64,000 nucleotides of DNA from Candidatus Hydrogenedens sp. (GCA_049968235.1 JBMFRC010000001.1:192001-256000), one strand, 5' to 3'; positions 30,933 through 51,727 are shown, numbered from the stretch's first letter. Notes: generated from the letters alone by a model not told the origin. Translations and numbers: made by a program.

Positions 30933-30982
30933 TGATACGGTAATAAGAATTTTTAGAATAGAAAACAAATAGGTTTATTGAT

Positions 30983-32814: not shown

Positions 32815-32865
32815 TTGACGAGTTAGATAAAATTGTGTTAATTTTGTTAAAAAAATTGTATAATG
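32815..32865 (+). promoter_or_regulatory. putative sigma70-type promoter for 32939 gene (TTGACG ... extended -10 TGTATAAT)
   Basis: hexamers read directly in 650-bp AT-rich spacer; spacing imperfect. Confidence 0.25.
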
Positions 32866-32938
32866 CTTATTATAGGATGAAGTAGCGTATATAATTATAT
32901 AATATAGTGTATTATTACAAATAACCGTGTAATATGGA

Positions 32939-34639: not shown

Positions 34640-34655
34640 TTTTTAAATATATAGG

Positions 34656-35399: not shown

Positions 35400-35402
35400 A
35401 GA

Positions 35403-37228: not shown

Positions 37229-38726
37229 TCTGTTTTTTATATCCTGTGGCAAACTGCATAATTTTTTCCTGAGTGGCTTCATTACGAGATAATTCACCGA
37301 CAAGGTGTCCTTCATGCATAACAAGAATACGGTCACACATACCTAAGACCTCCGGCAACTCACTGGAAATCATAAGGATTGCGACCCCTTCTTCCAGAAG
37401 TCGGTTCATAAGTTTGAATATTTCCGATTTTGCACCCACATCAATTCCGCGTGTCGGTTCATCAAAAATTAAAATTCGAGATTGAGTAAAGAGCCATTTT
37501 GCAAGAACCACCTTTTGTTGATTTCCACCACTCAAATTCTGTGCAATTTGTTCGATAGATGGAGTTCGTATTTGTAGGTCATGCACATATTTTTCGGCTA
37601 CCTCCCGTTCTTTTGCAAGATTGAGGAAAATTCCCCTTGTAATTTCTTTTAAGTTTGCCAGGGTTGTATTTTCGCGAATGGTCATACCTAAAACCAGTCC
37701 TTGATTTTTTCGGTCTTCCGTAAGTAGTCCAATACCATTTTTAATGGCTTCCTGCGGGGAACGGATTTTTACTTCCTGTCCATCAATAAAAATTTTGCCG
37801 GCATCAATAGGGTCCGCACCAAATATAGCACGTGCTACTTCTGTTCTACCGGCTCCAACCAGACCTGTAAGACCTACAATTTCCCCGCAATATACGGAGA
37901 AATTAATATCAAAAAAAGCACCTTTACGGGTAAATCCTTCCACTCGTAATCGTTCCTTACCACGAGGAAGAAATATTTTGGGATATTCATCTGTAAGTTC
38001 ACGACCAACCATCATTTTAATAACATCTTCACGACTTACATCGCAAACATTATGGGTTCCTACATACTGACCGTCCCGCATCACTGTAACACGGTTCCCT
38101 ATTTCATAAAGTTCTTCAAGCCGATGTGAAATATAGATAATTCCGATATCCTGCCGTCTTAATACTTTGATAAGTTCAAACAAAGTCTTTAATTCATGGT
38201 CTGTCAAAGTTGCCGAAGGTTCATCCATTACTATTATTTTTGCCTTTATGCTCAAAGCCTTAGCAATCTCTACCATTTGTTGTTGAGCAATACTCAATTC
38301 CGCCACGGGAAGTCGTACATCCAATTTTAATCCAACACGCTCTAATACTTCCTGTGCCCCTGCATACATCTGTTGCCAATTAATAAACGGTGTTTTAGGA
38401 ATACGCGGTTCTCTACCCAGGAAGATATTTTCCGCAACGCTTAAATAGGGAATAAGATTAAATTCCTGATATATCATGCTAATTCCCAATTGCTGGGCAT
38501 GGTAGGGAGAGGTAATTTGTATTGGTTGCCCTTCGAGAAAAATTTGCCCCGAATCCATAGCAACCGCACCTGCTAATATTTTCATGAGTGTTGATTTCCC
38601 GGCTCCATTTTCTCCTACAAGACAATGAACTTCTCCATAACGAACCTCTAATTGCACCTTATCTAATGCCAGGACACCCGGGAACCGTTTCGTTATATCT
38701 CGCATTTCAAGTAATACATCACTCAT
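37218..38726 (-). CDS. rbsA: sugar ABC transporter ATP-binding protein, duplicated ABC domains
   Basis: 502 aa; two Walker A (GENGAGKST; GLVGAGRTE), two LSGG signatures. Confidence 0.9.
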   Translation of the reverse strand: MSDVLLEMRDITKRFPGVLALDKVQLEVRYGEVHCLVGENGAGKSTLMKILAGAVAMDSGQIFLEGQPIQITSPYHAQQLGISMIYQEFNLIPYLSVAENIFLGREPRIPKTPFINWQQMYAGAQEVLERVGLKLDVRLPVAELSIAQQQMVEIAKALSIKAKIIVMDEPSATLTDHELKTLFELIKVLRRQDIGIIYISHRLEELYEIGNRVTVMRDGQYVGTHNVCDVSREDVIKMMVGRELTDEYPKIFLPRGKERLRVEGFTRKGAFFDINFSVYCGEIVGLTGLVGAGRTEVARAIFGADPIDAGKIFIDGQEVKIRSPQEAIKNGIGLLTEDRKNQGLVLGMTIRENTTLANLKEITRGIFLNLAKEREVAEKYVHDLQIRTPSIEQIAQNLSGGNQQKVVLAKWLFTQSRILIFDEPTRGIDVGAKSEIFKLMNRLLEEGVAILMISSELPEVLGMCDRILVMHEGHLVGELSRNEATQEKIMQFATGYKKQNVA

Positions 38727-39729
38727 TTTTTTGCCCTTCTAATAATGTTTCACGGGTAATTAATTTTACAGGGATATATTTTACAGAGGGAATATTTTTC
38801 CCCTGAAAAAACTCTGCAATAGTTTCACTTGCTGTTTTACCTATTTCTCTGGGAAACTGGGCAATGTCAGCAATCAATGCTTTACCCTCACTTATTGCTT
38901 TACATGCTTCCGGTGTTGCATCAAATCCGACAATTTTAATCTTCTCCTGTAATCCAGCAGATTCTACTGCAGCCAGAGCACCTAAAGCGGAATCATCGTT
39001 AATTCCAAAGATAGCATCTAAATCAGAGCGGGAAGCAATTAAATCCTGAGCAGAACGCATGGCTTTATCTCGTTGCCCTTCTCCCGGCACTTTTTGAACT
39101 ATACGAATTCCGGGATATTTCCCAATCGCATCTTCAAAACCTTTAACCCGTTCCTGAACAGAAGTAACCATAGGATGGTCAATAATAGCAACTTTTCCCT
39201 GTCCTTTTAATTCCTCTGCCAGGAATTCTCCTAATAAACTCCCTCCCTGATAATTGTCTGATGCTATATGACAAATTACATCGGTGTCCTTAACAGCAAT
39301 ATCTACAGTGAACACAGGGATTTTTTTTTCCATAGCCTGTTTTATAATTGGAGCCATTCCACTGGAATCAGTAGGGGCTACTACCAGTGCCTGAACCCCC
39401 TGGAGAATGAACATTTCTATCTGGTCATTTTGTTTGCGTGGGTCAAATTCTGCATATTGAATTTTTACCTGGATATTCTTTTGTTCCGCAGTCTCTTTCA
39501 TTGCCCCTGCCAGGTCTTGATAAAAAACATGTGTCTGGGTCAATAAAGAAGCACCTACAACTATCCGATTTGTTATTTCCGCTCCTGTTGTTTCTTTCTT
39601 TCCCGAACAAGAAATGATTAAAATAAATAGAAAAATGGCTATTAAACTTGAATAGAAATGTTTTAATTTTAAAATACACATACCTCTAAATTTTCCTTTT
39701 TTACATATCACCATTTTAATATACATCAA
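38719..39729 (-). CDS. rbsB: sugar ABC transporter periplasmic substrate-binding lipoprotein
   Basis: 336 aa; lipobox (IISCSG), periplasmic binding protein type I fold; start may be Met ~39681. Confidence 0.8.
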   Translation of the reverse strand: MMYIKMVICKKGKFRGMCILKLKHFYSSLIAIFLFILIISCSGKKETTGAEITNRIVVGASLLTQTHVFYQDLAGAMKETAEQKNIQVKIQYAEFDPRKQNDQIEMFILQGVQALVVAPTDSSGMAPIIKQAMEKKIPVFTVDIAVKDTDVICHIASDNYQGGSLLGEFLAEELKGQGKVAIIDHPMVTSVQERVKGFEDAIGKYPGIRIVQKVPGEGQRDKAMRSAQDLIASRSDLDAIFGINDDSALGALAAVESAGLQEKIKIVGFDATPEACKAISEGKALIADIAQFPREIGKTASETIAEFFQGKNIPSVKYIPVKLITRETLLEGQKNE

Positions 39730-39762
39730 AACAATTAATCCAATCAGTTGCGAATTAAAATC

Positions 39763-41490
39763 TTATTTGTCGTATCCAGTAGTATACCAGCGATTATATA
39801 AAAAGGGTAGAGAAAACACTTCTTTCTTTATAGGTAGATTGTCAATAATAGACGCTCCTTCTCCATTCCAGTCCACATTGATTCCGTCAAACCATGCCCC
39901 ACTAAACGAGCCTTCTTCATTCCCACACCAAACCCCCAACATGATTAACATAGTATTGGGAGACAGAGATTGAAAAGTCATACCGGGCGATAAGGAATGG
40001 ACAAGTTCGGGTATATTAAGTGTTATATGATGGGAACGATAACCATAATCGGGCAACATCATAGTGATAAATTTTCCTTCTTCTCTGTATTTTTCTAAAT
40101 ATTGAGGTTTTGCAGGTATTCCATCATGATACGCCCAAATTTTTGGGATATGTTTAACCCGCTCTTCGCGTGCTCCCCAATGGCCTACCCACATCCAGCA
40201 GAAATTTCTATCTTTAAACAAAGCAACTCGTATAAACCCACCTCCCAAAAAACTTTTCTCACTGTTCGGAATGTAATATCGTATTTTAACAACGGGACTT
40301 GCACTGCTATCGGGTATTTGCAAAACCTGATAAGCGTCGATACTTTCATCATATTGCCATGCATGCCCTTTGAATCGGGTAAATAAGTGCAGGGATTGCT
40401 CCCCCGGTAATAAGCCGCATTTTCGTATTTCGTGTATAAACCCCGGTTCCTGTTCTGATGTATAGCGTATAGGAAATAACCAGTCGGTTAAACCTCGTTC
40501 AAAATCACCATTTTTAATTTCCTTATACGATGGCATCTCGCTCCAGTGCAGAAATGAACGGGGGTCCATATCTTTCGTAAATATCGGGAAATGGGAAGGA
40601 TATTCATGCTTTGCATCAACTTCTAATTGCCGACCTACCAATTTCATATCAGAACCGTTAAGAACCGCTTCCACAAAATATCCCCGGTCTTTCTGCGTAT
40701 TAAACTCCGGATACTCTTCGCCAAAGGCTCTTCCGGGAACTAATGTGGGCAGAACAACAAATTTTGTCCCTTGATATTCCCATGCTGTCCGAACAGATGC
40801 TTTAATACCGTTATGAACATGCCCCATAAACACATATTGAACATTACCATATCGCACTATTGTGTCTAATAATTTGTTTTTTCTGTCCTTAGGATAAGTG
40901 TAATACTCTAACTGGGACAGTCCTACGGGTAATAAATGATAATGTAAAAATACCATTACAGGACTTCGCCATACTTCATGAAGTTCGTTATCCAACCATG
41001 CTATCTGTTCATCAAAATTATTGTTTTCCAATAAATCAGGTGTGGATAGAACGACAATTCGCCATGCACCACAGTTAAAGGCATAATTAGGCAAACGGAA
41101 CCCACATAACCGTTCTTGCATGGATAAAAACAATCCATCGTCATATTTCCCGTCATGATTCCCATGCACTAATGCCATAGGTATTTTTAGAGGTCGAACT
41201 GCATTTTCAAATGCTGAAAAATAATCGGGACGGGGAAAAGCAACAAGGTCACCATTAAAAACAATCAAATCTACCTGTTCCTGATTTGCTGTATTTACCA
41301 TCTTCTGCAGTGTTTGTTCCAATTCCCGTTCAAATCCAACAGGACTATCAGCAGGACCTATTTGTGGGTCTGCGATAAGAAAAATGCGGAGATTTTCTGT
41401 TTTCCCAGCAAGAGAAGCATAGTAATCTATCATGGGTTTGTTTGCACCATCCTGAGCCAATAAAATAAAGTAAAAAAAAATAGAAAGCAT
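39763..41490 (-). CDS. secreted calcineurin-like metallophosphoesterase with C-terminal beta domain
   Basis: 575 aa; signal peptide, GDLV..GNHD..GHVH motifs. Confidence 0.72.
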   Translation of the reverse strand: MLSIFFYFILLAQDGANKPMIDYYASLAGKTENLRIFLIADPQIGPADSPVGFERELEQTLQKMVNTANQEQVDLIVFNGDLVAFPRPDYFSAFENAVRPLKIPMALVHGNHDGKYDDGLFLSMQERLCGFRLPNYAFNCGAWRIVVLSTPDLLENNNFDEQIAWLDNELHEVWRSPVMVFLHYHLLPVGLSQLEYYTYPKDRKNKLLDTIVRYGNVQYVFMGHVHNGIKASVRTAWEYQGTKFVVLPTLVPGRAFGEEYPEFNTQKDRGYFVEAVLNGSDMKLVGRQLEVDAKHEYPSHFPIFTKDMDPRSFLHWSEMPSYKEIKNGDFERGLTDWLFPIRYTSEQEPGFIHEIRKCGLLPGEQSLHLFTRFKGHAWQYDESIDAYQVLQIPDSSASPVVKIRYYIPNSEKSFLGGGFIRVALFKDRNFCWMWVGHWGAREERVKHIPKIWAYHDGIPAKPQYLEKYREEGKFITMMLPDYGYRSHHITLNIPELVHSLSPGMTFQSLSPNTMLIMLGVWCGNEEGSFSGAWFDGINVDWNGEGASIIDNLPIKKEVFSLPFLYNRWYTTGYDK

Positions 41491-41554
41491 AACACCTCCT
41501 GATATGTATCCTTTTTATGATTATACGAATTTATCTTTGACTGGACAACATGAA

Positions 41555-41594
41555 TGTCCGACGGGTCTGACTGAACCAACTTGTCGGAGCGACA
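41555..41594. repeat. intergenic stem-loop, copy B (TGTCCGAC ... GTCGGAgcgACA, 20-nt loop gggtctgactgaaccaactt)
   Basis: 5' arm differs by one base from copy A; loop shares GTCtGAC and GAACC words; in divergent promoter region. Confidence 0.35.
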
Positions 41595-41668
41595 TACTTT
41601 ACTAGGAATGTTTTTAATGGGCTTAATACGATATAATCTGTATTTGTATAATAAAGGAGATATGGAAT

Positions 41669-42223
41669 ATGAAAAAAGTTCTGGTATTGCTTGCACAAGG
41701 ATGCGAAGAGGTTGAAGCGGTAACGGTAATTGATTTGCTGAATCGAGCAGGCCTTGAAGTAACCACAGCATGTCTGGATAATGAAAAAGTAATACATGCC
41801 AGTCATGGTGCAATATTAATGGCACAAAAAACTTTAAATGAGGTATTGGATGAAGAATTTGATATGGTTGTTTTACCCGGAGGGCTTCCAGGTGCAGACC
41901 ACTTAGCAAATGATACAAGAGTAGTCAATCTTATAAAAAATATGGCAAATGCGGGAAAATATGTTTCTGCAATCTGCGCTGCACCACATATATTAGCTCA
42001 AATTGGTTTGCTTGATGGAAAGAAAGCCACAGCATACCCGGGCTTTATAAAAAAAGAAAATTTTCCTCAAATAGATATTTGCGACGAAAAGGTCGTTGTA
42101 AGTGGGAATATAATCACGGGTAGAGGTCCAGGGGTTGCTATGGATTTTGCACTCACACTTATCGAGGTCTTATGTGGAAAGAAATTACGGGATAAGGTAG
42201 AAAAGACACTTGTCCGTTACTAA
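41669..42223 (+). CDS. DJ-1/PfpI (ThiJ) family protein
   Basis: 184 aa; nucleophile-elbow Cys in AICAAP motif. Confidence 0.85.
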   Translation: MKKVLVLLAQGCEEVEAVTVIDLLNRAGLEVTTACLDNEKVIHASHGAILMAQKTLNEVLDEEFDMVVLPGGLPGADHLANDTRVVNLIKNMANAGKYVSAICAAPHILAQIGLLDGKKATAYPGFIKKENFPQIDICDEKVVVSGNIITGRGPGVAMDFALTLIEVLCGKKLRDKVEKTLVRY

Positions 42224-42285
42224 AATAGTGTCTTTTATCAGGCTCAAAATTATTCATAGTTCACACCCAAAAAAATATTATCAGA

Positions 42286-43194
42286 TTATTCCGGGAAAGA
42301 TGTAAGAGATTTTTCGGCGGATTTTACAGTGTTTTTCATAAGCATGGCAATAGTCATAGGTCCAACCCCACCGGGAACCGGTGTAATGGCTCTTGCTTTT
42401 TTGGAAACACTGGGGAAATGAACATCACCCGTCAAACGATAACCTGATTTCCTGGTATTGTCAGGAATACGATTCATTCCCACATCAATAACCACACATC
42501 CTTCACTTACCATTCTACCTTGAATAAATTCGGGGACTCCCATCGCTGCAACCAGTATATCTGCACTTTGGGTAATGTTGCTTAAATTTCGTGTGTGCGA
42601 GTGACAAATCGTAACGGTAGCATCAGCACCTTCCGATTTTTGAACTAATAATGCAGATAAAGGCTTCCCTACAATATTGGAACGACCTACAATAACGACA
42701 TGCTTCCCCTGTATTTTATATCCATATCGTATAAGCAATTCCTGTATACCGGCAGGGGTACATGCCACAAAGCAGTCCTGCCCATTAAGCAATTTGCCCT
42801 TATTAACAGGATGAAATCCATCAACATCTTTACTCGGGTCAATTGCTTCCAGGATTTTTTCTTCATTGATATGTTTAGGCAGAGGGCTCTGGATAAGTAT
42901 TCCATGCACTTCTCTATTACAATTCAGTTTATCTACCAATTTAAGTAAATCTGACTCGGAAGTCTGTTGGGGCAAGTCGTATGCAAAGGAGCGAATTCCT
43001 AATTCTTCGCATGTTTTTCTTTTATTACGAACGTAAATCTGACTGGCAGGATTGTCTCCTACTAAAACTACTGCCAAACCGGGAATAACCCCTTTTTGTC
43101 TTAATCCTTCAATTCTATTTTTTAATTCTAACTTTATAATTTCGCTAAGTTTGACCCCATCTAATAATTTAGGTTTTCTGGGTGCAGGCATCAT
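42286..43194 (-). CDS. folD: bifunctional methylene-THF dehydrogenase / methenyl-THF cyclohydrolase
   Basis: 302 aa; FolD motifs (QIYVRNK, GRSNIVGKP, TPVPGGVGPMT). Confidence 0.9.
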   Translation of the reverse strand: MMPAPRKPKLLDGVKLSEIIKLELKNRIEGLRQKGVIPGLAVVLVGDNPASQIYVRNKRKTCEELGIRSFAYDLPQQTSESDLLKLVDKLNCNREVHGILIQSPLPKHINEEKILEAIDPSKDVDGFHPVNKGKLLNGQDCFVACTPAGIQELLIRYGYKIQGKHVVIVGRSNIVGKPLSALLVQKSEGADATVTICHSHTRNLSNITQSADILVAAMGVPEFIQGRMVSEGCVVIDVGMNRIPDNTRKSGYRLTGDVHFPSVSKKARAITPVPGGVGPMTIAMLMKNTVKSAEKSLTSFPE

Positions 43195-43209
43195 TGTCTC
43201 CTTCTTTAT

Positions 43210-44667
43210 TTATATTCTGGACGCATTTAACGGGCGGACAACATTAAGTTCCTTAGCCGCTTTAACTTCATCTAACCGTTGAACGGGCGTAGTTACAGGT
43301 GCTTTTCTCAATTCATTCGGGTTGTTTTTTGCCAGTTCTGATAATTCCAGCATCGTATCACAAAACCGGTCCAGAGTTTCCTTTGTTTCTGTCTCTGTGG
43401 GTTCAATCATTAATGCTTCTTTTACAGTTAATGGGAAATAGACTGTTGGTGCATGAAATCCACGGTCAAGCAATGCTTTGGCAAAATCTAAAGCCCTTAT
43501 TTCCCAATCATGATAAGGCATAGCGGTAAGCACACATTCATGCATACATAAACGGTCATAAGCAGGTGGAAAAGCAGAACGAAGTCGTGATAACACATAA
43601 TTGGCATTGAGAACTGCCTTTCGGCTGACTTCCTTCAGTCCTTCATTCCCTTGCATCAAAATATAGACATAAGCACGTACTGCAACTACAAAATGACCCA
43701 AAAAGGGTGCCGACTTACCAATGCTATTTCTGGGGTATTCAAGGCTAAAACCATTACCGTCATTCTTTATTACTCTGGGACCCGGCAAGAACTCCATTAA
43801 TCGTTCATTAACTCCAACGGGACCCGAACCAGGACCACCCATTCCGTGAGGAGTTGCAAAAGTCTTATGAAGATTAAAATGCATCACATCAAACCCCAAA
43901 TCTCCGGGTCGGCATTGTCCTATAATAGCGTTTAGATTGGCACCATCGTAATAAAGCAGTGCATCGTGTTTATGAGCAAGGTCAGCAATCTCATGAATAT
44001 CTTTTTCAAATAAGCCATGTGTATTCGGGCAGGTCAACATAATACCAGCAACCTCATCGTTCATAACTTCACGGAAATGATTTAAATCTAAAGTCCCTTG
44101 TGAATTAGAGGGAACCTCCTGCACCTGAAAGCCCGCTATCGCCGCACTGGCAGGATTTGTCCCATGAGCAGAGTCGGGTATAAGTATTATTTTTTTGTGC
44201 GTATTTTTATGGTATTTATGATAAGCGGACATCATCAATACGCCGGTCAATTCCCCATGTGCCCCTGCCATAGGTTGGAGAGAAACAGCACACATACCTG
44301 AAATTTCACTTAATAATTGTTCCAGATGATACACCAATTCCAGAGCACCTTGAATACAGTCAAGATATACTTCCGAATAGAGTAATTGTGGATGTAATTG
44401 GGTAAATCCTGCAAGGGATGAAACTACATCTGCAATTTTAGGATTGTATTTCATTGTGCAGGAACCTAAGGGATAAAAGTTTGTATCTATCCCCATATTT
44501 CTCTGTGAGAGATGTGTAAAATGACGGACAACATCCAATTCTGAAACTTCAGGAAGTTCTGCGGATTTTTGTCGCTTTAATTCTTGAGGAAATGGAACAT
44601 TCAGTTCCTTTTTGTTGCGAAAAGAGAACGCCTGCCGATGATTGCATTTTTCATAAATCAAATCCAT
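43210..44667 (-). CDS. gcvPB: glycine dehydrogenase (decarboxylating) subunit 2
   Basis: 485 aa; PLP-fold with NLHKTF lysine motif; follows gcvPA. Confidence 0.9.
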   Translation of the reverse strand: MDLIYEKCNHRQAFSFRNKKELNVPFPQELKRQKSAELPEVSELDVVRHFTHLSQRNMGIDTNFYPLGSCTMKYNPKIADVVSSLAGFTQLHPQLLYSEVYLDCIQGALELVYHLEQLLSEISGMCAVSLQPMAGAHGELTGVLMMSAYHKYHKNTHKKIILIPDSAHGTNPASAAIAGFQVQEVPSNSQGTLDLNHFREVMNDEVAGIMLTCPNTHGLFEKDIHEIADLAHKHDALLYYDGANLNAIIGQCRPGDLGFDVMHFNLHKTFATPHGMGGPGSGPVGVNERLMEFLPGPRVIKNDGNGFSLEYPRNSIGKSAPFLGHFVVAVRAYVYILMQGNEGLKEVSRKAVLNANYVLSRLRSAFPPAYDRLCMHECVLTAMPYHDWEIRALDFAKALLDRGFHAPTVYFPLTVKEALMIEPTETETKETLDRFCDTMLELSELAKNNPNELRKAPVTTPVQRLDEVKAAKELNVVRPLNASRI

Positions 44668-44680
44668 ACAATAATTACTC

Positions 44681-46054
44681 CTATGAAATATTTATCTGAA
44701 TAAGTTCGGCGAGCCTGTCTAATTCTTTTTGTGTCCTTTTCTCCGTTACCGCTATAAGCAAATCGCCCTCTTCTCCATAACTATTTCCATTTATATCTTT
44801 ATAAGTCATTTGTTGTTTACAATGTTTTAATAAAGGTTTCAAAGGTATACCGGGCAATATCCCGCTTTCCTTAATTTTTGCAATAACTTTTTCCGCCGGG
44901 ATAGGAAGACGTACAACAAATTCATTGAAAGTAGGTTGAGAATTTACTATCGGTACAAATACACTTAATTTCTTTTTCAGATATTCTGTTTTGGAGTAGC
45001 AATCCTGAGCCACTTCTATCAATCCCTGCTTTCCTACTTCACATAGATAAATCAAAGCACGCAAAGCACATAATGCTTGATTGGAACACACATTTGACAT
45101 GGCTTTTTCGCGTCGGATATGTTGTTCCCTTGCCTGTAAAGTGAGAACAAAACCGCGTTTCCCTTGTTTATCAACTGTCATCGCACATATACGCCCGGGC
45201 ATCTTTCGGATATACTCCTTCTTTGCTGTAAACAATCCTAAATAAGGCCCTCCAAACCCTAAGGGTAATCCTAAACTCTGTCCCTCACCCACAGCAATAT
45301 CTGCCTCCATCTCACCGGGTGTCTTCATAATGCCTAGGGCAATAGGATAAAATTGGATTATCATAAGGGCAGATGCGGAATGGCATTTCTGGGCAAGGGC
45401 AGTGAAATCATGTATGTTTCCAAAAAAATCAGGCGTCGCACCAACAACACAAGCACAACCTTCAGGTTCATCTCCATATTCTAATTCCAATTCAAGGTTT
45501 GCCGTGTGGGTGCGTATCATCTGTTCGTAAATGGGATTTAACCCCGGTATGATTTTTACTTTTCGTTTGCCGGTAACACGAACTGCAAGCATAATTGCTT
45601 CAAATAGGGCTGTTCCGCCGTCATACAAAGAAGCATTTGCTACTTCCATATCTGTCAACCGGCACAAAGCAGTCTGATATTCATAAATGGCTTGAAGTGT
45701 TCCCTGTGAACATTCCGGCTGATAGGGAGTATAGGCTGTAGAAAATTCTCCCCGTTGAGCAAGGTAATCAACTACCGCAGGGATATAGTGGTCATAAAAA
45801 CCACCACCGATAAAAGAAATACAATCCGTCTCATTTTTTTTACTTAATACTTCCAGATGTTGATATGCTTCTATTTCTGATAAACCTTCGGGGATGTTCC
45901 AGGATTGTAATCTAAGGGATGGAGGTATATCTTCAAATAATGAATCAACCGACGAAACACCAATGGTTTGCAACATTTCTTGTTCATCTTTTTGAGTTAC
46001 AGGAATCCACGCCATAATATATTCCTCAAACCATATTAACTTTAATAAAAACAA
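44681..46054 (-). CDS. gcvPA: glycine dehydrogenase subunit 1 (start possibly Met ~46015)
   Basis: 457 aa; P-protein N-terminal half, operon position. Confidence 0.88.
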   Translation of the reverse strand: MFLLKLIWFEEYIMAWIPVTQKDEQEMLQTIGVSSVDSLFEDIPPSLRLQSWNIPEGLSEIEAYQHLEVLSKKNETDCISFIGGGFYDHYIPAVVDYLAQRGEFSTAYTPYQPECSQGTLQAIYEYQTALCRLTDMEVANASLYDGGTALFEAIMLAVRVTGKRKVKIIPGLNPIYEQMIRTHTANLELELEYGDEPEGCACVVGATPDFFGNIHDFTALAQKCHSASALMIIQFYPIALGIMKTPGEMEADIAVGEGQSLGLPLGFGGPYLGLFTAKKEYIRKMPGRICAMTVDKQGKRGFVLTLQAREQHIRREKAMSNVCSNQALCALRALIYLCEVGKQGLIEVAQDCYSKTEYLKKKLSVFVPIVNSQPTFNEFVVRLPIPAEKVIAKIKESGILPGIPLKPLLKHCKQQMTYKDINGNSYGEEGDLLIAVTEKRTQKELDRLAELIQINIS

Positions 46055-46109
46055 ATTTCCTTCTGGATGAAAATATCAAGATTCAAATGTGATAATTTTA
46101 AACAACAGA

Positions 46110-46490
46110 TTATAATGATTTGAGATATTTCTCGTATGCTTCACGGTTCATCAATCGGCGATACTGAGCGATGTCAATATCATCCATCTTGAAGCACCAA
46201 CCTTTACCATAGGGGTCAAGATTAATGAGTTCAGGTTCCCCTTCTAATGCCTCATTAACCTCTACGATTACACCTGTAACAGGGGCATAAATATCCTCTG
46301 CCGCCTTTACAGATTCTACCTGTGCCACAGGTTCCTTTTGTCGAACATGTCTGCCCACTTCGGGTAATTCGACATAAGTAACATCGCCCAATTGCTCCTG
46401 TGCATACTCCGAGATACCTACAATATACAATCCATCTTCTTCCCCAATCCATTCATGATTTTCTGTATAGCGAACATCCTCTGGATACAT
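46110..46490 (-). CDS. gcvH: glycine cleavage system H protein (lipoyl carrier)
   Basis: 126 aa; lipoyl-lysine motif ESVKAA. Confidence 0.9.
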   Translation of the reverse strand: MYPEDVRYTENHEWIGEEDGLYIVGISEYAQEQLGDVTYVELPEVGRHVRQKEPVAQVESVKAAEDIYAPVTGVIVEVNEALEGEPELINLDPYGKGWCFKMDDIDIAQYRRLMNREAYEKYLKSL

Positions 46491-46553
46491 AGCATGTTCT
46501 CCTTATTTGTTGTTTGGGGCGTTAAATTTTTTTACATTTACACAACACATTTA

Positions 46554-47639
46554 TTATAAGACCTTTTTTCGGGCAGTTCCGTTTGGATAAATGGGGACAT
46601 TACATACCTCAACCTGTAAAGGACGTCCTGCAACCTGCAGAACTGTTCCGGGGATAGCGACCTGTTTATCTAACATAGCTAAACCGACACCAACTCCAAC
46701 ACTGGGGCCATAGGTACCACTGGTAACCTCTCCTACCTCGCTACCTTGAAAGACAAGTTTCTGATTGTGCCGGGGTGCCTGTCGCGTATGCGTTTTTATT
46801 CCCATTAGAACACGATAGTCGCCCCTGTTTTTTTGTTGCAAAAGAAAATCTTTGCCAATAAAATCGTGTTCCCAATCAATGAATCGGTCCATAGAAGCCA
46901 TTAATGGAGTTGTGCCGGGAAGGATATCCTGCCCATTTAAGGGATAACCCATCTCTGTTCGTAATGTATCACGGGCTCCCAGTCCACACGGCTTTACCTC
47001 TGAATGGGATACTAACTTTTCCCAGATGTCAGCACCTATGGATAGGGGAAGATAAAGTTCATAACCTAACTCGCCGGTATAGCCTGCACGTGTTATTATG
47101 ATATTTTCATCTTTCCATTTTAATCTCCCACCTGTCCAATACTTTAATTCTTTAATTTGTGAATTGAAATCTGATTGAAGCAGAACATCTAAGCTTTTAG
47201 GTCCCTGAATATCTATTTTCACAGTGCGTTGACTAATATCTTCTGCATGAACATCAGAATTACATAATAAAGCAGATACCTCTTCTAAAGGTCCCGCATT
47301 AGTTATCACAAATAAAGTTTCATCATCTAATTTAATCCCCACACAGTCATCAAGGATAGAACCGTCAGGGTTTAATAGTGCAGTATATCGGCATTTTCCT
47401 ACAGGAAGAGGTAAAAAATCACCACAAGTGAGAAATGAAAAATGAGCAATTTTATCCCGACCATGGATAATAAATTCTCCCATGTGAGAACAATCAAAAA
47501 TACCCGCGTGGGAACGGACATGTAGGTGTTCCGCAATAATTCCTTCAAATTGAATGGGTAAATACCAGCCATGAAAATCTACAAACCGCCCGCCTGATTT
47601 TTCACAACACTCAAAAAGTGGAGTCTTCTTCAAATCCAA
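46554..47639 (-). CDS. gcvT: aminomethyltransferase (glycine cleavage T protein); TTG start with AGGAG SD 7 nt upstream
   Basis: 361 aa GcvT-like; codon at 47639..47637 is TTG. Confidence 0.88.
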   Translation of the reverse strand: MDLKKTPLFECCEKSGGRFVDFHGWYLPIQFEGIIAEHLHVRSHAGIFDCSHMGEFIIHGRDKIAHFSFLTCGDFLPLPVGKCRYTALLNPDGSILDDCVGIKLDDETLFVITNAGPLEEVSALLCNSDVHAEDISQRTVKIDIQGPKSLDVLLQSDFNSQIKELKYWTGGRLKWKDENIIITRAGYTGELGYELYLPLSIGADIWEKLVSHSEVKPCGLGARDTLRTEMGYPLNGQDILPGTTPLMASMDRFIDWEHDFIGKDFLLQQKNRGDYRVLMGIKTHTRQAPRHNQKLVFQGSEVGEVTSGTYGPSVGVGVGLAMLDKQVAIPGTVLQVAGRPLQVEVCNVPIYPNGTARKKVL

Positions 47640-47716
47640 TGAACTTCTCCTATGAGTGACAACACATTTAATTATATGTTATTATGGTATTCAATTATGA
47701 TTAAATAAACGAATTT

Positions 47717-47796
47717 TACGCCCAGGCGAACGGCGCCTTTTATGGTTTTGTCGCTCCCTTGTGGTTTATTCCACTTAAATCGCCAGTTGCGACACA
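47717..47796 (-). ncRNA. candidate ZTP (ZMP/ZTP-sensing, pfl motif) riboswitch in gcvT-folD operon leader
   Basis: minus-strand sequence GUCGC-AACUGGCGA-[P2 GUGG aauaaa CCAC]-AAGGGAGCGAC-(linker)-AGGCGCCGUUCGCCUGGGCG reproduces the conserved pfl segments ACUGGCG, P2 hairpin, GGGAGCGAC closing P1, and 3' CGCCUGGGC hairpin. Confidence 0.55.
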
Positions 47797-47990
47797 TAAA
47801 CATAATCTATTATATCAAAATATAACCTTAAACTTCAAGAATTAGTTCTCATAACAAAATTTTATAGTGAAAAAATATAAAATTAAAGTTTTATATGGCA
47901 AATAATTTTATAAAAAATCTTTAAATCTTATAAAAAGCAGGATTTACGGATAATCAAAGAATACTCTATCTAATTTAATAAGAGGAAGTT

Positions 47991-48752
47991 ATGATTAAAC
48001 AACAAGAAAAGAATAATAACCATAACCCTGAAATGGATTTACGACAAAGGGGAGAAATTTTCCGACTGTTTAATCGAATTGCTCGTAAATATGATATAAC
48101 AAACCATTTATTATCTTTTGGTCAGGATGCTCATTGGCGAAGGGAACTTGTTCGTCAAATTCAGATAGAAAAAGGACAGGATTTTTTTTTATTAGACCTT
48201 GCAACAGGGACAGGAGAGGTTATAAAAACTTTTCGAGAATTCTTTCCTGATTTGGGTTGTGTTATTGGAATAGACCTTTCCGTAGGGATGATACGGGAAG
48301 GGATGGAGAAACTTCCGAATAATACACAGAAGCACTTATTTGCTGTTATGGATGTTCTATATCCGGGCATCAAATCCGAGACCATCAATGTAGTAACAAT
48401 GGCTTTCGGAATACGCAATGTATCAGAAGTTTCTCTGTCATTGAAAGAAATCTACCGTGTATTGAAACCCGGAGGACAGGTATTAATTCTTGAATTTGGT
48501 CTTCCCCAAAAAGGGTTATGGAGAACGATATACCTATTTTACTTGCGATATTTGCTCCCATATATAGGTGGTTTCTGGACAGGTTGCCCTTCTGCATACC
48601 GATATTTAAGCGAAACAATATGCAAATTTCCTTCTCATAATCACTTTTCTTTATTATTAGAAGAAGTAGGTTTTACAAATGCAAAATGGACAGAATTCAA
48701 CCGCGGTGCTGTATTGTTATACACTGCCAGTAAACCCGGTAAAAGCGAATAA
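47991..48752 (+). CDS. ubiE: demethylmenaquinone/ubiquinone C-methyltransferase
   Basis: 253 aa; UbiE/MenG family sequence (LDLATGTG motif I, FGIRN, PGGQVLILEF). Confidence 0.85.
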   Translation: MIKQQEKNNNHNPEMDLRQRGEIFRLFNRIARKYDITNHLLSFGQDAHWRRELVRQIQIEKGQDFFLLDLATGTGEVIKTFREFFPDLGCVIGIDLSVGMIREGMEKLPNNTQKHLFAVMDVLYPGIKSETINVVTMAFGIRNVSEVSLSLKEIYRVLKPGGQVLILEFGLPQKGLWRTIYLFYLRYLLPYIGGFWTGCPSAYRYLSETICKFPSHNHFSLLLEEVGFTNAKWTEFNRGAVLLYTASKPGKSE

Positions 48753-48928
48753 CTACATATTAAAATTTCTAAATAAACACATCATCTTTTAGAAAACTGT
48801 TCCCAATTTACTCGATAATAAAATGGATAATATTACAACATTTATCCTCCTGACGCATATAAATTGATTTCTTTTATAATTAATTAGGTACAATTTCTGA
48901 ATTACTTCGCAAAAAAATCTTTGTTAAT

Positions 48929-49684
48929 TTAGAATTTTGGCGTTTCTATAGATAAAAATGGCAATAACTCCTGTCGTGTTTCCTCAATGGTATGTAATTT
49001 CCCGTTATGTGCACATAAGAAATCCTGACATTTCTTAAAATAATCTGGATTTTCAATATAATTATTAATCAAATTTACTTGTTTTTTTGCATCATAAATC
49101 AACTCATGTGCAATATTCCCTTGAGAGAAATATACCTTATCTATTCTTCTTCGGTATCCTGAAAGAACACGGATATAGAACATTAAATTAATTCGACGAA
49201 AATAACCATCAGGAACCCGATTTTGAATACATATCTGGTCATATGCTTCGTCTATATCATCCGCATGGAGATTGGTAGCAAGAATATGACCGTAATCTAA
49301 TAGTACAAAATAGTTTTGCAATGCGGAACCCCAGAGGTATGCAAACCAATGTCCTGCTCCAATCTCATGACATATATAACATTTTTTCTTATTAGTAATC
49401 CCCTGTTTTATTCCTTGTTTAATTTCTTGTTCTGAGGCAGATACAAGTTGGACATCTATCGGAACAAAATTCAGTAAAGCACCCATTATTGTTGTTTTTC
49501 CTGCTCCCCCCGGATTGGCGCCTACAAGGAACGATGCCCCCTGACTAATTCGATAAAGGGCAAAACTGGCTAATTCTATATTTAGTGTTTCTCGTTCTAA
49601 CAGGTCAAAAATGGAGAACATTCGTCCTCCTCGTTGATTACACCGATTAATTTCATTACAATGCAAAATAACTTCTGCTTGCAT
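48929..49684 (-). CDS. uncharacterised P-loop NTPase
   Basis: 251 aa; Walker A GANPGGAGKTT near N-terminus; no further family motif recognised; gene is an island between two AT-rich spacers. Confidence 0.5.
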   Translation of the reverse strand: MQAEVILHCNEINRCNQRGGRMFSIFDLLERETLNIELASFALYRISQGASFLVGANPGGAGKTTIMGALLNFVPIDVQLVSASEQEIKQGIKQGITNKKKCYICHEIGAGHWFAYLWGSALQNYFVLLDYGHILATNLHADDIDEAYDQICIQNRVPDGYFRRINLMFYIRVLSGYRRRIDKVYFSQGNIAHELIYDAKKQVNLINNYIENPDYFKKCQDFLCAHNGKLHTIEETRQELLPFLSIETPKF

Positions 49685-49933
49685 AATAACCTCTTCTATC
49701 TATATCTATGTTTATTTTTCAGGATATTTTACTAAAATTTAATATCATGTTAATGATTTCTTAAAAAACTATAACAGAATAACTTTTAAAATACCTTATT
49801 TTTTTAGAATAAATTATGAAAAGAAAAAAGTTTCAACAAAAGAGGTTTTATCATATTTTTGTTTTTATCAGCTATAATTTATTATTTTATTATTATTCTA
49901 TTTTTATTAACATTAAAATAAGGATTAACTAAA

Positions 49934-51727
49934 GTGAAAAATTCTATGCTATTTAAAGGTTTTCAAGGAAAACTATTGTTCGGAGTAATTTTAACATACA
50001 TAATATTAATTATTATTCAGAGTATCTTGTTCTTTTACGGTAAAAATTTGGCTGAGTCTCTTTCAAAAAATATAAATACATCGGCAGAGGCGAGTCACCA
50101 ATTTAACGAGTTCTGGACAGTAATAGATAGTTTTATATCTAATAGGACTCCGATTTCAGAAATAGAAAACAAAAAAGAACTTATAATAAAAAATGATTTC
50201 TTCATCCCTTTCAAGAAAGAAATTGAAGATATACTACAACTCTGTTCGGAAATTGACACAATACGGAATAATAATTTACAGATAAAAGCTGATGTCAAGA
50301 AAACGGCTGATGAAAATATATTGCAATCTGATACTTACATTAATGAAGTGGTAAAAAGACTTACAGACCCGGCAGAAGAAGGTAAAGTAACCACATTAGA
50401 AAAGTTGGTTATTGTTGGGGCTTTAATAAATACAACCACTAATTACAAATTACTCAATATATCCGAAAGATTATCTTATGACTTTACCGCCCGAGAAGAG
50501 ATTATGAACTTTTTCAAAGTTTTGTTTGAAAATGTGGATAGAGATATAGAGAGATTAAAGAATACAGATTTTGCACAACTACCTGTAAATGCCAAAAAAG
50601 CAGGATTATTAATGAATGAACTAACGGTCAAATATATTGGTAATTTAGAAATTTTAGACCAGAAAATATCTTCCTTAAATCTCATAGGTCGAGATACTTT
50701 TACAAAAATTGAATCTGCTCCTATTCAGTTGGGGAAAGAGAGTATGCTAAAAATCATTAGAACTACGAGAAATAATATTATAATAAGCGTAAGTATCATT
50801 CTTATATCCGCTTTCATTATTTTGTATGTTATTCGAAAAGTAGCAAAAGATATATATGAAATTACAGATACTCTTCGGGAATCTGCATTATCTGTTTTAT
50901 CCGTGGTTCAGGAGTTAACAGGAGGAAGTCAAATCCTTGCGGAATCTACTTCTGAACAGGCAGCATCCATTGAAGAAATAACCTCTACACTCGAAGAACT
51001 TTCCTCTATCGGGAAGAAAAGTGCAGACAATTCTTTCAAAGCAAATCAAATAATCCAGAACGAATTAGTAGAGATTAAAAAAGTGGAAGATTCCATTAAG
51101 AGTTTGAGCACATATATGAAAGAAGTGGAGAATGTCAGTTTTGAGACATCTAAGGTTATAAAAACAATTGATGAGATTGCATTTCAGACAAATCTTCTTG
51201 CATTAAATGCGGCTGTTGAAGCGGCAAGAGCGGGTGAAGCAGGTGCAGGTTTTGCCGTAGTTGCAGATGAAGTTCGACATTTAGCAATGAAGGCTGGTGA
51301 GGCGGCTCAATTAACATCATCTCTTATTGGACAGACTGTAGATAAAGTTAAACAAGGTAGTGCCATTACCAATAATGCATCTGAAAATTTCCAAAAAATG
51401 GTGGAAGGGGTTCTTGTGGCTTCAAATATAATGGAAGAAATAACAAATACTTCCGCATCTGCCTCTAACGGGATTGCTCAGGTCACGAAGGCAATAACAG
51501 AAATTGATAAAGGGACACAGCAAAATGCCGGTGTTGCAGAAGAAAGTTCTTCAACGGTTGAGAACTTAAAATCAGAAGTTCAGATACTCTACCAATCTAT
51601 GGGAAAACTGGCACAATTAATAGGTCAAAAAATAGAACAAAAACAATCTGTCAATATTAAAAGAAAAACTTCCTCATCAACTATCGATGCTTTGATTTCT
51701 CTACCTAAAAATGACACGAGTAAATAG
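49934..51727 (+). CDS. methyl-accepting chemotaxis protein
   Basis: 597 aa; N-terminal TM + periplasmic region, second TM, highly conserved signalling domain [27 protein letters not shown]. Confidence 0.88.

What the first reader, a model, noticed from the sequence alone, without database searches (positions are those of the whole stretch)
47717..47796. Candidate ZTP (pfl) riboswitch controlling a gcvT-gcvH-gcvPA-gcvPB-folD one-carbon operon
The only GC-moderate patch in the 350-bp AT-rich leader of gcvT (minus strand) reads 5'-GUGUCGC AACUGGCGA UUUAA GUGG AAUAAA CCAC AA GGGAGCGAC AAAACCAUAAAA GGCGCCGUUCGCCUGGGCG-3'. This reproduces, in the correct order, the segments I know to be conserved in ZTP riboswitches. 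These are P1 (GUCG/CGAC) followed by ACUGGCG, a small P2 hairpin, GGGAGCGAC closing P1, a variable linker, and the 3' hairpin with CGCCUGGGC, whose loop forms the pseudoknot. ZTP riboswitches sense ZMP/ZTP as a signal of 10-formyl-THF shortage and switch on purine and one-carbon genes such as folD, glyA and purH. Here the regulated operon makes 5,10-methylene-THF (glycine cleavage) and converts it to 10-formyl-THF (folD), which is an exact functional fit. A glycine riboswitch would be the textbook expectation upstream of gcvT, but its motifs are absent.
Basis: partly seen in the sequence, partly recalled or inferred. Interest (0 to 1): 0.7.

Follow-up and report, generated by a model that had tools for sequence, protein, structure and literature searches.

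The report
ZTP riboswitch before glycine-cleavage operon
This is a genuine ZTP (folate-stress) riboswitch in front of a glycine-cleavage/folD operon of a Hydrogenedens-like bacterium; the sensor is ordinary, but the strand that competes with it appears to lie about 45 bases inside the first gene instead of in a terminator or at the ribosome-binding site.

Summary
The observation and the interpretation both hold. Rfam RF01750 (ZMP/ZTP) matches window 47800-47713 (minus strand) over the full model at 64.6 bits (cut-off 39). No glycine riboswitch is present, even at E<=10. Downstream lie gcvT, gcvH, gcvPA, gcvPB and folD, ended by a convergent gene. The organism belongs to Hydrogenedentota. All 15 non-identical relatives with an intact leader, down to 51% GcvT identity, carry the same aptamer upstream of gcvT, with compensatory changes in P1.

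The leader has no canonical terminator and no aptamer-linked SD mask. Instead, in all 14 AT-rich-clade sequences the P3 5' strand plus L3 (the pseudoknot strand) forms a contiguous 12-16 bp helix (-20 to -28 kcal/mol) with gcvT nucleotides +43..+56 (window 47597-47584).

Four results support this helix:
- covariation at the only variable position;
- Arg18 CGG is the only non-start codon invariant among 77 conserved degenerate columns;
- synonymous resampling gives p about 0.002;
- RNAalifold recovers the helix independently.

How the helix lowers expression is unresolved. SD accessibility does not depend on state in thermodynamic models. I favour translational control with kinetic locking.

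Verdict: a new member of a known class with a possibly novel expression platform. Interest is moderate to low.

The parts
47809..47838 (-). Promoter-like site. -35 TTGAAG is at 47838-47833, with extended -10 TGATATAAT at 47817-47809. The predicted transcription start is about 47803-47801.
   Evidence: 10 of 12 matches, TG extension. CTTGAA and TGATATAAT are conserved in the close relatives. The promoter is inferred, not mapped.
47713..47800 (-). ZMP/ZTP riboswitch aptamer (pfl motif), full length.
   Evidence: RF01750 scores 64.6 bits against a cut-off of 39, model positions 1-86 of 86. Homologues score 55-68 bits.
47749..47794 (-). Subdomain 1. P1 is UGUCGC 47794-47789 with GCGACA 47754-47749. 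J1/2 carries ACUGGCG. P2 is GUGG 47774-47771 with CCAC 47764-47761.
   Evidence: Rfam alignment. Five P1 pairs have changes on both sides, and P2 forms in 19 of 19 sequences.
47781..47784 (-). Pseudoknot 5' strand, GGCG in J1/2.
   Evidence: It pairs with CGCC at 47728-47725 in 19 of 19 sequences. Both strands are invariant, so there is no covariation. The J1/2:L3 topology is taken from bioRxiv 10.1101/521930.
47718..47736 (-). P3 hairpin. The stem is GCGCC/GGCGU. L3 is GUUCGCCUG at 47731-47723 and contains the pseudoknot 3' strand CGCC at 47728-47725.
47722..47734 (-). Target strand 'A', GCCGUUCGCCUGG. It comprises the P3 5' strand, L3 with the pseudoknot strand, and the first G of the P3 3' strand. 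It pairs with the invader when the aptamer is empty.
   Evidence: RNAduplex gives -23.8 kcal/mol over 13 contiguous pairs. Also supported by pair counts and RNAalifold.
47652..47712 (-). AU-rich leader between the aptamer and the SD. The block 47698-47652 is conserved in close relatives only and contains a hairpin, AUAACAU/GUGUUGU. No terminator is present.
   Evidence: The block is not conserved in L013 or L017-L020.
47637..47651 (-). Translation initiation region. The SD AGGAG is at 47651-47647, followed by a 7-nt spacer and the TTG start codon at 47639-47637.
   Evidence: The TTG start is invariant in 14 of 14 AT-rich-clade genes.
47619..47623 (-). CUCCA (gcvT +17..+21, Thr-Pro codons). It is the predicted local pairing partner of the SD (GGAG:CUCC) or of the start codon (UGGA:UCCA).
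   Evidence: This is a prediction only, and the pairing is the same in both aptamer states.
47584..47597 (-). Invader 'E', UCAGGCGGGCGGUU. It covers gcvT +43..+56, that is codons Ser15-Gly16-Gly17-Arg18-Phe19, and is complementary to strand A.
46554..47639 (-). gcvT (aminomethyltransferase).
   Evidence: NCBIfam NF001567 and TIGR00528, both above their cut-offs.
46110..46490 (-). gcvH.
   Evidence: NF002270 and TIGR00527, both above their cut-offs.
44681..46054 (-). gcvPA. Coordinates are those of the listed ORF; the true start may lie a few codons downstream.
   Evidence: NF001696 scores 542 bits against a cut-off of 364.
43210..44667 (-). gcvPB.
   Evidence: NF003346 scores 681 bits against a cut-off of 441.
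42286..43194 (-). folD, the last gene of the operon. A convergent DJ-1/PfpI gene lies at 41669-42223 on the + strand.
   Evidence: FolD family models at E about 1e-105 to 1e-117; NF010783 scores 350.5 bits against a cut-off of 333.

Best explanation
A ZMP/ZTP-sensing riboswitch lies in the roughly 162-nt leader of a gcvT-gcvH-gcvPA-gcvPB-folD operon of a Hydrogenedens-like bacterium.

Proposed mechanism, with the status of each step:
1. The aptamer (P1-J1/2-P2, a linker, P3, and the J1/2:L3 pseudoknot) folds first. This step is shown by sequence, structure and covariation.
2. About 125 nt later RNA polymerase transcribes gcvT nucleotides +43..+56 (UCAGGCGGGCGGUU). This segment is complementary to the P3 5' strand plus L3, including the pseudoknot strand and the ligand-contacting U. 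The complementarity is well supported.
3. If the aptamer is empty, this 'invader' displaces P3 and the pseudoknot and forms a 13-bp long-range helix. The helix locks the aptamer in a state that cannot bind ligand, and it encloses the whole translation-initiation region in one closed domain. This step is inferred by analogy with the canonical ZTP strand-displacement mechanism and the thiC anti-P1 lock.
4. If ZMP or ZTP is bound, P3 and the pseudoknot resist invasion. Control would be kinetic, because at equilibrium the long-range helix wins by 10-22 kcal/mol. This step is also inferred.
5. Output: expression is ON with ZMP, raising the supply of 5,10-methylene-THF and 10-formyl-THF when 10-formyl-THF is short. 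I think the OFF state most likely lowers translation initiation at the weak, invariant UUG start, whose SD and start codon are already in a local hairpin. Effects on mRNA yield would be secondary. This last step is not shown by any computation here.
For: Aptamer
- RF01750 scores 64.6 bits against a cut-off of 39.
- All 15 non-identical relatives with an intact leader have it at 55-68 bits.
- Across 19 aptamers (window plus relatives), 93.5% of cells pair against 38-48% when the partners are slid. Five P1 pairs have double-sided changes, and 0 of 500 shuffles reach the observed score.

Operon
-. The same five genes occur in L017-L021 and L026.

No alternative element
- No glycine riboswitch at E<=10.
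- No terminator in the leader.

Invader
- It is the best duplex in 13 of 14 AT-rich-clade leaders (second only in the window), always at +43..+56, at -19.7 to -27.6 kcal/mol. The next-best duplex within 150 nt is -11 to -19.
- 90% of cells pair against 24-45% when slid. The one variable pair shows A:U 4, U:A 4, G:U 1, U:G 1 and 2 mismatches.
- RNAalifold returns the helix unprompted.
- The unconstrained ensemble is essentially the helix-forced ensemble, and locking the aptamer costs 10-22 kcal/mol.
- Arg18 CGG is the only non-start codon identical in all 14 sequences among 77 conserved, at least 4-fold degenerate columns. Gly16 is GGC or GGT only. CGG is 12% of Arg codons and GGC 9% of Gly codons in this genome.
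- Synonymous resampling gives a duplex this strong in 2 of 1000 trials.
- GC-rich relatives have Gly-Ala/Gly-Lys at this place. All 14 AT-rich-clade proteins have Gly-Gly-Arg.

ON logic and translational level
- In the GC-rich relatives L021 and L022 the same aptamer strand is predicted to pair with the SD or the start codon.
- The UUG start is invariant.

Mechanistic precedents
- PMC10085676, bioRxiv 10.1101/521930 and PMC5234074.
Against: - Predicted SD and start-codon accessibility is low (0.00-0.30 for the SD) and the same whether the aptamer is locked or invaded. No computed link therefore connects the helix to translation.
- A structure that starts at +43 lies outside the footprint of an initiating ribosome (established knowledge).
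- Covariation rests on a single variable column, and 2 of 12 sequences are mismatched there. All other pairs are invariant or wobble changes.
- The helix was derived from these same sequences, which inflates the slid-register control.
- The sequences are phylogenetically related, with about four independent clades.
- No ligand-binding or expression data exist for this phylum.
Confidence: 0.55

Rival explanations
1. Same aptamer and same invader, but the output is premature transcription termination inside gcvT. The long-range helix would act as the stem of an unusual terminator whose 'loop' is the 120-nt leader plus initiation region. The U-rich Phe-Val-Asp-Phe codons (UUUGUAGAUUUU, +55..+66) that follow would serve as the U-tract.
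For: The canonical ZTP output is termination by an invader that displaces P3 and the pseudoknot. The helix is followed directly by an AU-rich tract with only two G in nine nucleotides. Kinetic control, which the energetics require, is typical of transcriptional switches. Some GC-rich relatives (L024, L025) show an invader followed by a U-run in the 5' UTR.
Against: The tract fails the simple terminator criterion. Its proximal Phe19 codon varies freely, TTT in 10 and TTC in 4, and Val20 and Asp21 also vary. A 120-nt loop is far outside known terminators. Canonical terminators are not enriched in 20 kb of this genome, at 17 found against 15.4 expected.
Confidence: 0.17
2. The aptamer is functional, but the complementarity at +43..+56 does not belong to the switch. 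In this view the codon bias has another cause. Regulation would then run through something not visible in sequence, such as Rho-dependent termination, RNase access to the AU-rich leader, or a protein bound to the conserved leader block.
For: No state-dependent SD masking is predicted. E. coli riboswitches use Rho and RNase E without recognisable motifs (PMC5234074). A conserved AU-rich block with a direct repeat lies in the leader. Another strong but interrupted duplex exists at +548 in the window.
Against: The +43 helix is contiguous, keeps its position and is found in 14 of 14 sequences. The +548 site is confined to three close genomes. The L3 nucleotide covaries with the Gly17 third position. 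Codon invariance is unique to Arg18. The AU-rich block is absent from L013 and L017-L020, which still have the invader.
Confidence: 0.15
3. The switch is OFF-type. ZMP would repress the operon, for example because the glycine cleavage system and FolD run in the reductive (glycine synthase) direction here and so consume 10-formyl-THF. The empty-state long-range helix would be the active conformation.
For: Sequence alone does not fix the sign of the switch when the invader masks neither the SD nor a terminator. In L017-L020 the long-range helix would enclose and could favour UUCCUC:GAGGAA pairing over UUCCUC:GGAGG. A tandem OFF ZTP system has been reported (PMC9481103).
Against: In relatives regulating the same gene, the aptamer strand is predicted to mask the SD or start codon in the empty state, which is ON logic. 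Folding predicts the SD paired in both states in L017-L020. Nearly all described ZTP riboswitches activate one-carbon genes.
Confidence: 0.07
4. The hit is a degenerate or non-functional relic, or a different riboswitch class such as glycine.
For: None was found. A glycine riboswitch would be the textbook expectation upstream of gcvT.
Against: The full-length match scores 25 bits above threshold. The aptamer is conserved with compensatory changes across genomes from 37 to 64% GC. RF00504 is absent at E<=10.
Confidence: 0.02

Closest known systems
ZTP (pfl motif) riboswitch, Rfam RF01750, e.g. Clostridium beijerinckii pfl and Thermosinus carboxydivorans
   Same: The aptamer architecture and conserved nucleotides are identical: P1-J1/2-P2, a variable linker, P3 and the J1/2:L3 pseudoknot. 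The gene context is one-carbon and purine metabolism. A downstream strand complementary to the pseudoknot 3' strand competes with the aptamer, which is the strand-displacement logic described in PMC10085676 and bioRxiv 10.1101/521930.
   Different: In the canonical case the invader lies a few nucleotides after P3. It pairs with the P3 3' strand plus the pseudoknot strand and completes a terminator with a U-tract. Here the invader is about 125 nt downstream, inside the ORF (codons 15-19). It pairs with the P3 5' strand plus L3, has no convincing U-tract, and does not mask the SD. The regulated operon starts with gcvT, which is not among the associations listed by Weinberg et al. 2010 (purH, fhs, pfl, glyA, folD). 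I found no paper reporting ZTP upstream of gcvT, but the original 2015 ZTP paper could not be read.
E. coli thiC TPP riboswitch 'anti-P1' intramolecular lock (PMC5234074)
   Same: Both have a long-range stem between an aptamer strand and a sequence more than 100 nt downstream, near or in the start of the gene. The stem forms only after that sequence has been transcribed, shuts off ligand binding and so closes a co-transcriptional sensing window.
   Different: thiC is an OFF switch, and its lock also frees the RBS from a sequestering stem, so the link to output is explicit. Its output includes Rho termination at a pause site. No such three-way competition or pause could be identified here.
Glycine riboswitch (gcvT motif, RF00504)
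   Same: It occupies the same genomic position, the leader of the glycine-cleavage operon, in many Firmicutes and Proteobacteria.
   Different: It is a different aptamer with a different ligand. There is no match here even at E<=10. Control is by demand for one-carbon units (ZMP) and not by the substrate (glycine).
ZTP riboswitches of GC-rich Hydrogenedentota upstream of gcvT
   Same: They have the same aptamer, the same first gene and the same aptamer strand (GCCGNUCGCCUG) used for alternative pairing.
   Different: Their predicted partner overlaps the SD (L021), the AUG (L022, and possibly L023 and L024), or precedes a U-run in the 5' UTR (L024, L025). Their operons mostly lack folD. GcvT has Gly-Ala/Gly-Lys where the AT-rich clade has Gly-Gly-Arg.

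Membership tests
ZTP riboswitch (RF01750) | The covariance-model score reaches Rfam's gathering threshold over the full model. | tested here: met
   64.6 bits against 39, model positions 1-86 of 86, E=3.5e-8.
ZTP riboswitch (RF01750) | P1-J1/2-P2 subdomain with conserved ACUGGCG and GGGAGCG. | tested here: met
   Present in the window. The segments are invariant in 19 aptamers, and P1 has five pairs with compensatory changes.
ZTP riboswitch (RF01750) | P3 hairpin whose loop carries CGCCUGGGC, joined to subdomain 1 by a variable linker. | tested here: met
   GCGCC-GUUCGCCUG-GGCGU at 47736-47718. The linker is variable in length and sequence across homologues.
ZTP riboswitch (RF01750) | A pseudoknot between J1/2 and L3. 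| tested here: met
   GGCG (47784-47781) with CGCC (47728-47725) can pair in 19 of 19 sequences. Both strands are invariant, so there is no covariation evidence.
ZTP riboswitch (RF01750) | The aptamer binds ZMP or ZTP. | not testable with these tools
   This needs in-line probing or ITC with ZMP.
ZTP riboswitch (RF01750) | Association with purine or one-carbon (10-formyl-THF) genes. | tested here: met
   gcvT-gcvH-gcvPA-gcvPB-folD lie downstream. The association with gcvT holds in all 19 distinct loci examined.
ZTP riboswitch (RF01750) | A typical expression platform: an intrinsic terminator or an SD-sequestering stem overlapping P3 and the pseudoknot. | tested here: not met
   There is no terminator in the leader, and SD accessibility is independent of state. 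A conserved invader of P3 and the pseudoknot exists, but inside the CDS at +43..+56. Expression platforms do not define the Rfam family, so this does not affect membership of the aptamer class.
Glycine riboswitch (RF00504) | A covariance-model match in the gcvT leader. | tested here: not met
   No RF00504 hit at E<=10 in 47500-48100, and none at the gathering threshold in the window or in 26 loci.
Long-range anti-aptamer lock (thiC-type concept) | A conserved stem between an aptamer strand and a distal downstream sequence, mutually exclusive with the ligand-binding fold. | tested here: met
   A 12-16 bp helix in 14 of 14 sequences, supported by covariation and by synonymous-site constraint.
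Long-range anti-aptamer lock (thiC-type concept) | The lock is coupled to the output through a competing RBS-sequestering stem, a pause or Rho. | tested here: inconclusive
   No competing stem was found. Pausing and Rho cannot be tested with these tools.

The most novel reading that the evidence does not exclude
The AT-rich Hydrogenedens clade may use a ZTP expression platform of a kind not described for this class. The strand that displaces P3 and the pseudoknot is embedded in the coding sequence of the regulated gene (codons 15-19), about 125 nt beyond the aptamer. It has fixed rare codons (GGC, CGG) and probably drove a Lys-to-Arg and Ala-to-Gly replacement in GcvT. It would act neither as a terminator stem nor as an SD mask. 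It would instead be a kinetic lock that closes a long ligand-sensing window, possibly read out through interplay with the first translating ribosome at a weak UUG start.
Probability: 0.45. Interest if true: 0.5.

Novelty: new member of a known kind. Interest (0 to 1): 0.33.

Why it matters
The result extends the ZTP regulon to the glycine cleavage system in a poorly studied candidate phylum, Hydrogenedentota. In this phylum every sampled gcvT is under ZTP control, not glycine control. One-carbon supply is therefore governed here by demand (the 10-formyl-THF shortage alarmone) and not by substrate.

ZTP is the model system for co-transcriptional strand displacement. A natural variant with its invader 125 nt downstream and inside the ORF would be a useful natural experiment. 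It could show how long a sensing window can be, and how an RNA switch constrains the protein sequence it overlaps.

If the invader proves irrelevant, this is simply one more Rfam-detectable ZTP riboswitch.

Tried and rejected
- **Glycine or any other Rfam family in the leader.** Nothing credible appeared at E<=10.
- **Intrinsic terminator after P3.** None was found. The + strand 'terminator' at 47724-47738 is just the reverse complement of a GGCG/CGCC alternative hairpin in P3.
- **Terminator-like hairpin inside gcvT at 47521-47500.** It lies in the conserved GxFDxSHMG codons, is only weakly complementary to P3 (-12.8 kcal/mol), and is not consistently present in relatives. I judged it to be chance.
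- **Thermodynamic RBS masking.** SD and start-codon unpaired probabilities were compared in free, aptamer-locked and helix-forced ensembles, and no state dependence was seen. My first attempt had the helix register off by one; one search corrects it.
- **Direct pairing of L3 (UUCGCCU) with the SD (AGGAGAA).** This gives only 3+3 bp around a G-A mismatch, so I rejected it as too weak.
- **A 5-codon upstream ORF (AUGUGUUGUCACUCAUAG).** It is not conserved in relatives.
- **Extension of the long-range helix into the linker (CCAUAAAA with UUUUCAUGG).** It occurs only in the closest genomes.
- **The conserved AU-rich block as the expression platform.** It is absent from L013 and L017-L020, which keep the invader.
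- **A second strong duplex at +548.** It is interrupted and confined to three genomes.
- **Literature.** The original ZTP paper (Kim et al. 2015) is not held in the library, so I could not check whether gcvT appears in its gene list.

Full report
**1. The observation**

A scan of the whole 64-kb window against all 4227 Rfam families at gathering thresholds returned one hit. It is RF01750 (ZMP/ZTP riboswitch, pfl motif) at 47800-47713, minus strand, 64.6 bits against a cut-off of 39, covering model positions 1-86 of 86, with E=3.5e-8. A permissive scan of 47500-48100 at E<=10 found no glycine riboswitch; the other six matches are miRNA-type noise far below their thresholds.

The segments are:
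- P1: UGUCGC 47794-47789 with GCGACA 47754-47749.
- J1/2: ACUGGCG.
- P2: GUGG/CCAC, 47774-47761.
- GGGAGCGAC closing P1.
- An AU-rich linker.
- P3: 47736-47718, with loop L3 GUUCGCCUG.
- Pseudoknot: J1/2 GGCG (47784-47781) can pair with L3 CGCC (47728-47725). This is the topology established for this class (bioRxiv 10.1101/521930).

**2. Surroundings**

Downstream on the same strand lie five genes (NCBIfam):

| Gene | Window coordinates |
|---|---|
| gcvT | 47639-46554 |
| gcvH | 46490-46110 |
| gcvPA | 46054-44681 |
| gcvPB | 44667-43210 |
| folD | 43194-42286 |

A convergent DJ-1/PfpI gene (41669-42223, + strand) ends the operon. Upstream and divergent lies a UbiE/MenG methyltransferase gene (47991-48752).

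A promoter-like TTGAAG-N17-TGATATAAT (47838-47809) lies immediately 5' of the aptamer and is conserved in relatives. The transcribed leader is therefore about 162 nt, not the full 351-bp spacer. The SD AGGAG (47651-47647) precedes a TTG start (47639-47637).

**3. Relatives**

GcvT-based searches identified the lineage as Candidatus Hydrogenedens / Hydrogenedentota. I examined 19 distinct gcvT leaders including the window, with GcvT identity from 88% down to 51% and genome GC from 37 to 64%. Every one carries RF01750 upstream of gcvT at 55-68 bits. One further contig, L012, is cut inside P3.

On an alignment of the 19 aptamers:
- 93.5% of cells form standard pairs, against 38-48% when the partners are slid.
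- Five P1 pairs show changes on both sides.
- P2 and the pseudoknot can form in 19 of 19 sequences.
- No shuffle out of 500 reaches the observed covariation score.

The AT-rich clade keeps the five-gene operon with folD. Most GC-rich relatives lack folD there.

**4. Expression platform**

The canonical ZTP platform is a terminator whose 3' strand (the 'invader') displaces P3 and the pseudoknot unless ZMP is bound (PMC10085676; PMC2864571). No terminator is present in this leader, and canonical terminators are not enriched in 20 kb of this genome, at 17 found against 15.4 expected.

Folding the leader plus the early CDS gave the same unexpected result in the window and in five relatives. GCCGUUCGCCUGG (47734-47722) comprises the P3 5' strand, L3 including the pseudoknot strand, and the conserved L3 U that contacts ZMP. 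It pairs with gcvT +43..+56, UCAGGCGGGCGGUU (47597-47584).

The evidence for this helix is as follows.
- **Systematic duplex search.** In 14 of 14 AT-rich-clade leaders it is a contiguous 12-16 bp helix (7+5 with one mismatch in L004 and L005), at -19.7 to -27.6 kcal/mol, always at +43..+56. The next-best site within 150 nt is -11 to -19.
- **Whole-gene scan.** The site ranks first or second in all 13 sequences scanned. The only stronger site, +548 in the window, is interrupted (longest run 5) and limited to three close genomes.
- **Ensemble energies.** The helix dominates the unconstrained ensemble. Forbidding it, as a stand-in for a ligand-locked aptamer, costs 10-22 kcal/mol.
- **Consensus folding.** RNAalifold on nine sequences returns the helix as the consensus.

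**5. Is the complementarity selected?**

Most of the aptamer strand is invariant in the whole family, so only one position can covary: the L3 nucleotide after GCCG. It faces the third position of Gly17. The pairs seen are A:U in 4 sequences, U:A in 4, G:U in 1 and U:G in 1, with 2 mismatches (U:U and U:C). Overall 90% of cells pair against 24-45% in slid registers, and 2 of 500 shuffles reach the observed covariation score.

Synonymous sites give the clearest signal. In a codon alignment of 14 gcvT genes (minimum 58% amino-acid identity), 77 columns hold an invariant amino acid that is at least 4-fold degenerate. Only two of these columns use a single codon in all 14 sequences. One is the TTG start and the other is Arg18 CGG, inside the invader. 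Gly16 is GGC (12) or GGT (2), whereas other Gly columns use all four codons. In this genome CGG is 12% of Arg codons, GGC is 9% of Gly codons, and GC3 is 30%.

Resampling synonymous codons of the first 100 codons with the genome's usage gives a duplex at least this strong in 2 of 1000 trials.

GC-rich relatives have Gly-Ala/Gly-Lys at this place, while all 14 AT-rich-clade proteins have Gly-Gly-Arg. This suggests that the RNA pairing shaped the protein sequence; that is an inference.

There are caveats. The clades are related, with about four independent lineages. The helix was defined on these same sequences. The covariation rests on a single column.

**6. How the helix affects expression**

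This step is not resolved. Predicted SD and start-codon accessibility is low and identical in the free, aptamer-locked and helix-forced ensembles (one search had a register error, which one search corrects). The SD or start codon is predicted to pair locally with CUCCA at +17..+21 in both states. A helix that begins at +43 lies outside an initiating ribosome's footprint (established knowledge).

The U-rich tract after the helix (UUUGUAGAUUUU) fails a simple terminator test and is not under synonymous constraint: Phe19 is TTT in 10 sequences and TTC in 4.

In GC-rich relatives the same aptamer strand is predicted to pair with the SD (L021) or the AUG (L022). This argues for ON logic and a translational level of control in this phylum. 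The invariant weak UUG start points the same way.

The energetics require kinetic, co-transcriptional control, as shown for the canonical ZTP switch. The closest mechanistic precedent is the long-range anti-P1 'intramolecular lock' of E. coli thiC, which closes the ligand-sensing window (PMC5234074).

My confidence in each step is:

| Step | Confidence |
|---|---|
| Aptamer is a ZMP sensor | about 0.97 |
| Invader helix is the alternative (empty-state) conformation | about 0.75 |
| Switch is ON with ZMP | about 0.85 |
| Output is translational | about 0.4 |
| Output is intragenic attenuation | about 0.17 |
| Output is another route (Rho, decay) | the remainder |

**7. Comparison with what is known, and novelty**

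The aptamer meets every testable defining feature of RF01750. Only ligand binding could not be tested. Association with one-carbon genes is typical of the class. gcvT itself is not in the list given by Weinberg et al. 2010 (purH, fhs, pfl, glyA, folD), and I found no paper describing ZTP upstream of gcvT. The 2015 ZTP paper could not be read, so I do not claim the association is new.

Any Rfam-based annotation pipeline would find this element. I therefore file it as a new member of a known kind. The CDS-embedded invader is a candidate new variant of the ZTP expression platform. It is supported by comparative evidence, but it is functionally untested.

**8. Verdict**

The added value of this second look is twofold. 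ZTP, not glycine, controls gcvT across Hydrogenedentota. And in the AT-rich clade the competing strand lies in codons 15-19 of gcvT. Interest: 0.33.

Noticed in passing
window 47652-47698 (minus strand); L004 5943-5974; L026 4943-4975: An AU-rich block of about 45 nt between the aptamer and the SD is nearly invariant among the close relatives but absent from L013 and L017-L020. It contains a direct repeat, CAATTGAAT twice with 23-nt spacing in L004 and L026, and TAATTGAAT / TAATTAAAT in the window. It also contains a hairpin, AUAACAU/GUGUUGU. It could be a second promoter (TTGAAT-N17-TTAAAT), a protein operator or an S1-type translational enhancer.
   Followed up: partly
window 47637-47639: The gcvT start codon is TTG in all 14 AT-rich-clade genes. 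It is one of only two conserved degenerate columns with a single codon. GC-rich relatives use ATG or GTG. A conserved weak start suggests that the initiation rate is part of the regulation.
   Followed up: partly
window 47500-47521 (minus strand): A terminator-like hairpin plus UUUUUGAUU lies inside gcvT at +118..+139, in the codons for the conserved RxxAGIFDVSHMG motif. It is weakly complementary to the P3 subdomain (-12.8 kcal/mol). Similar weak sites occur at the same place in L005, L017, L019 and L026. It is probably a by-product of Ile-Phe codons.
   Followed up: partly
L022 6099-6575; L024 6101-6577: In two GC-rich Hydrogenedentota genomes a PilZ-domain gene (158 aa) lies between gcvT and gcvH, inside the ZTP-controlled operon. 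This is an unexpected link between a c-di-GMP-receptor-type domain and glycine cleavage.
   Followed up: no
L023 9484-10209; L025 10271-11017: GC-rich relatives carry a lipoate-protein ligase (LplA/LipB family) gene after gcvPB where the AT-rich clade has folD. This fits lipoylation of GcvH. L022 and L024 have neither gene at that position.
   Followed up: no
window 30000-49999: Canonical intrinsic-terminator-like sites are no more frequent than in shuffled sequence, at 17 found against 15.4 +/- 4.3 expected. None follows folD. This lineage may rely little on hairpin-plus-U-tract terminators.
   Followed up: no
window 47724-47738 (+ strand): The terminator-like call on the + strand is the reverse complement of an alternative AGGCG/CGCCU hairpin within P3 and L3. 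That hairpin is possible only in the window and, more weakly, in L001. It would compete with the pseudoknot.
   Followed up: partly
window 48929-49684 and 41430-41918 (minus strand): These are two ORFs of 251 and 162 aa with no Pfam or meaningful NCBIfam match. The 162-aa ORF overlaps the DJ-1/PfpI gene on the opposite strand and is probably not a real gene.
   Followed up: no
L008 8354-8453: An Rfam PYLIS_3 (pyrrolysine insertion sequence, mttB) hit at 47.3 bits lies next to a distant GcvT-family gene in Pseudorhodobacter. It is unrelated to this finding.
   Followed up: no
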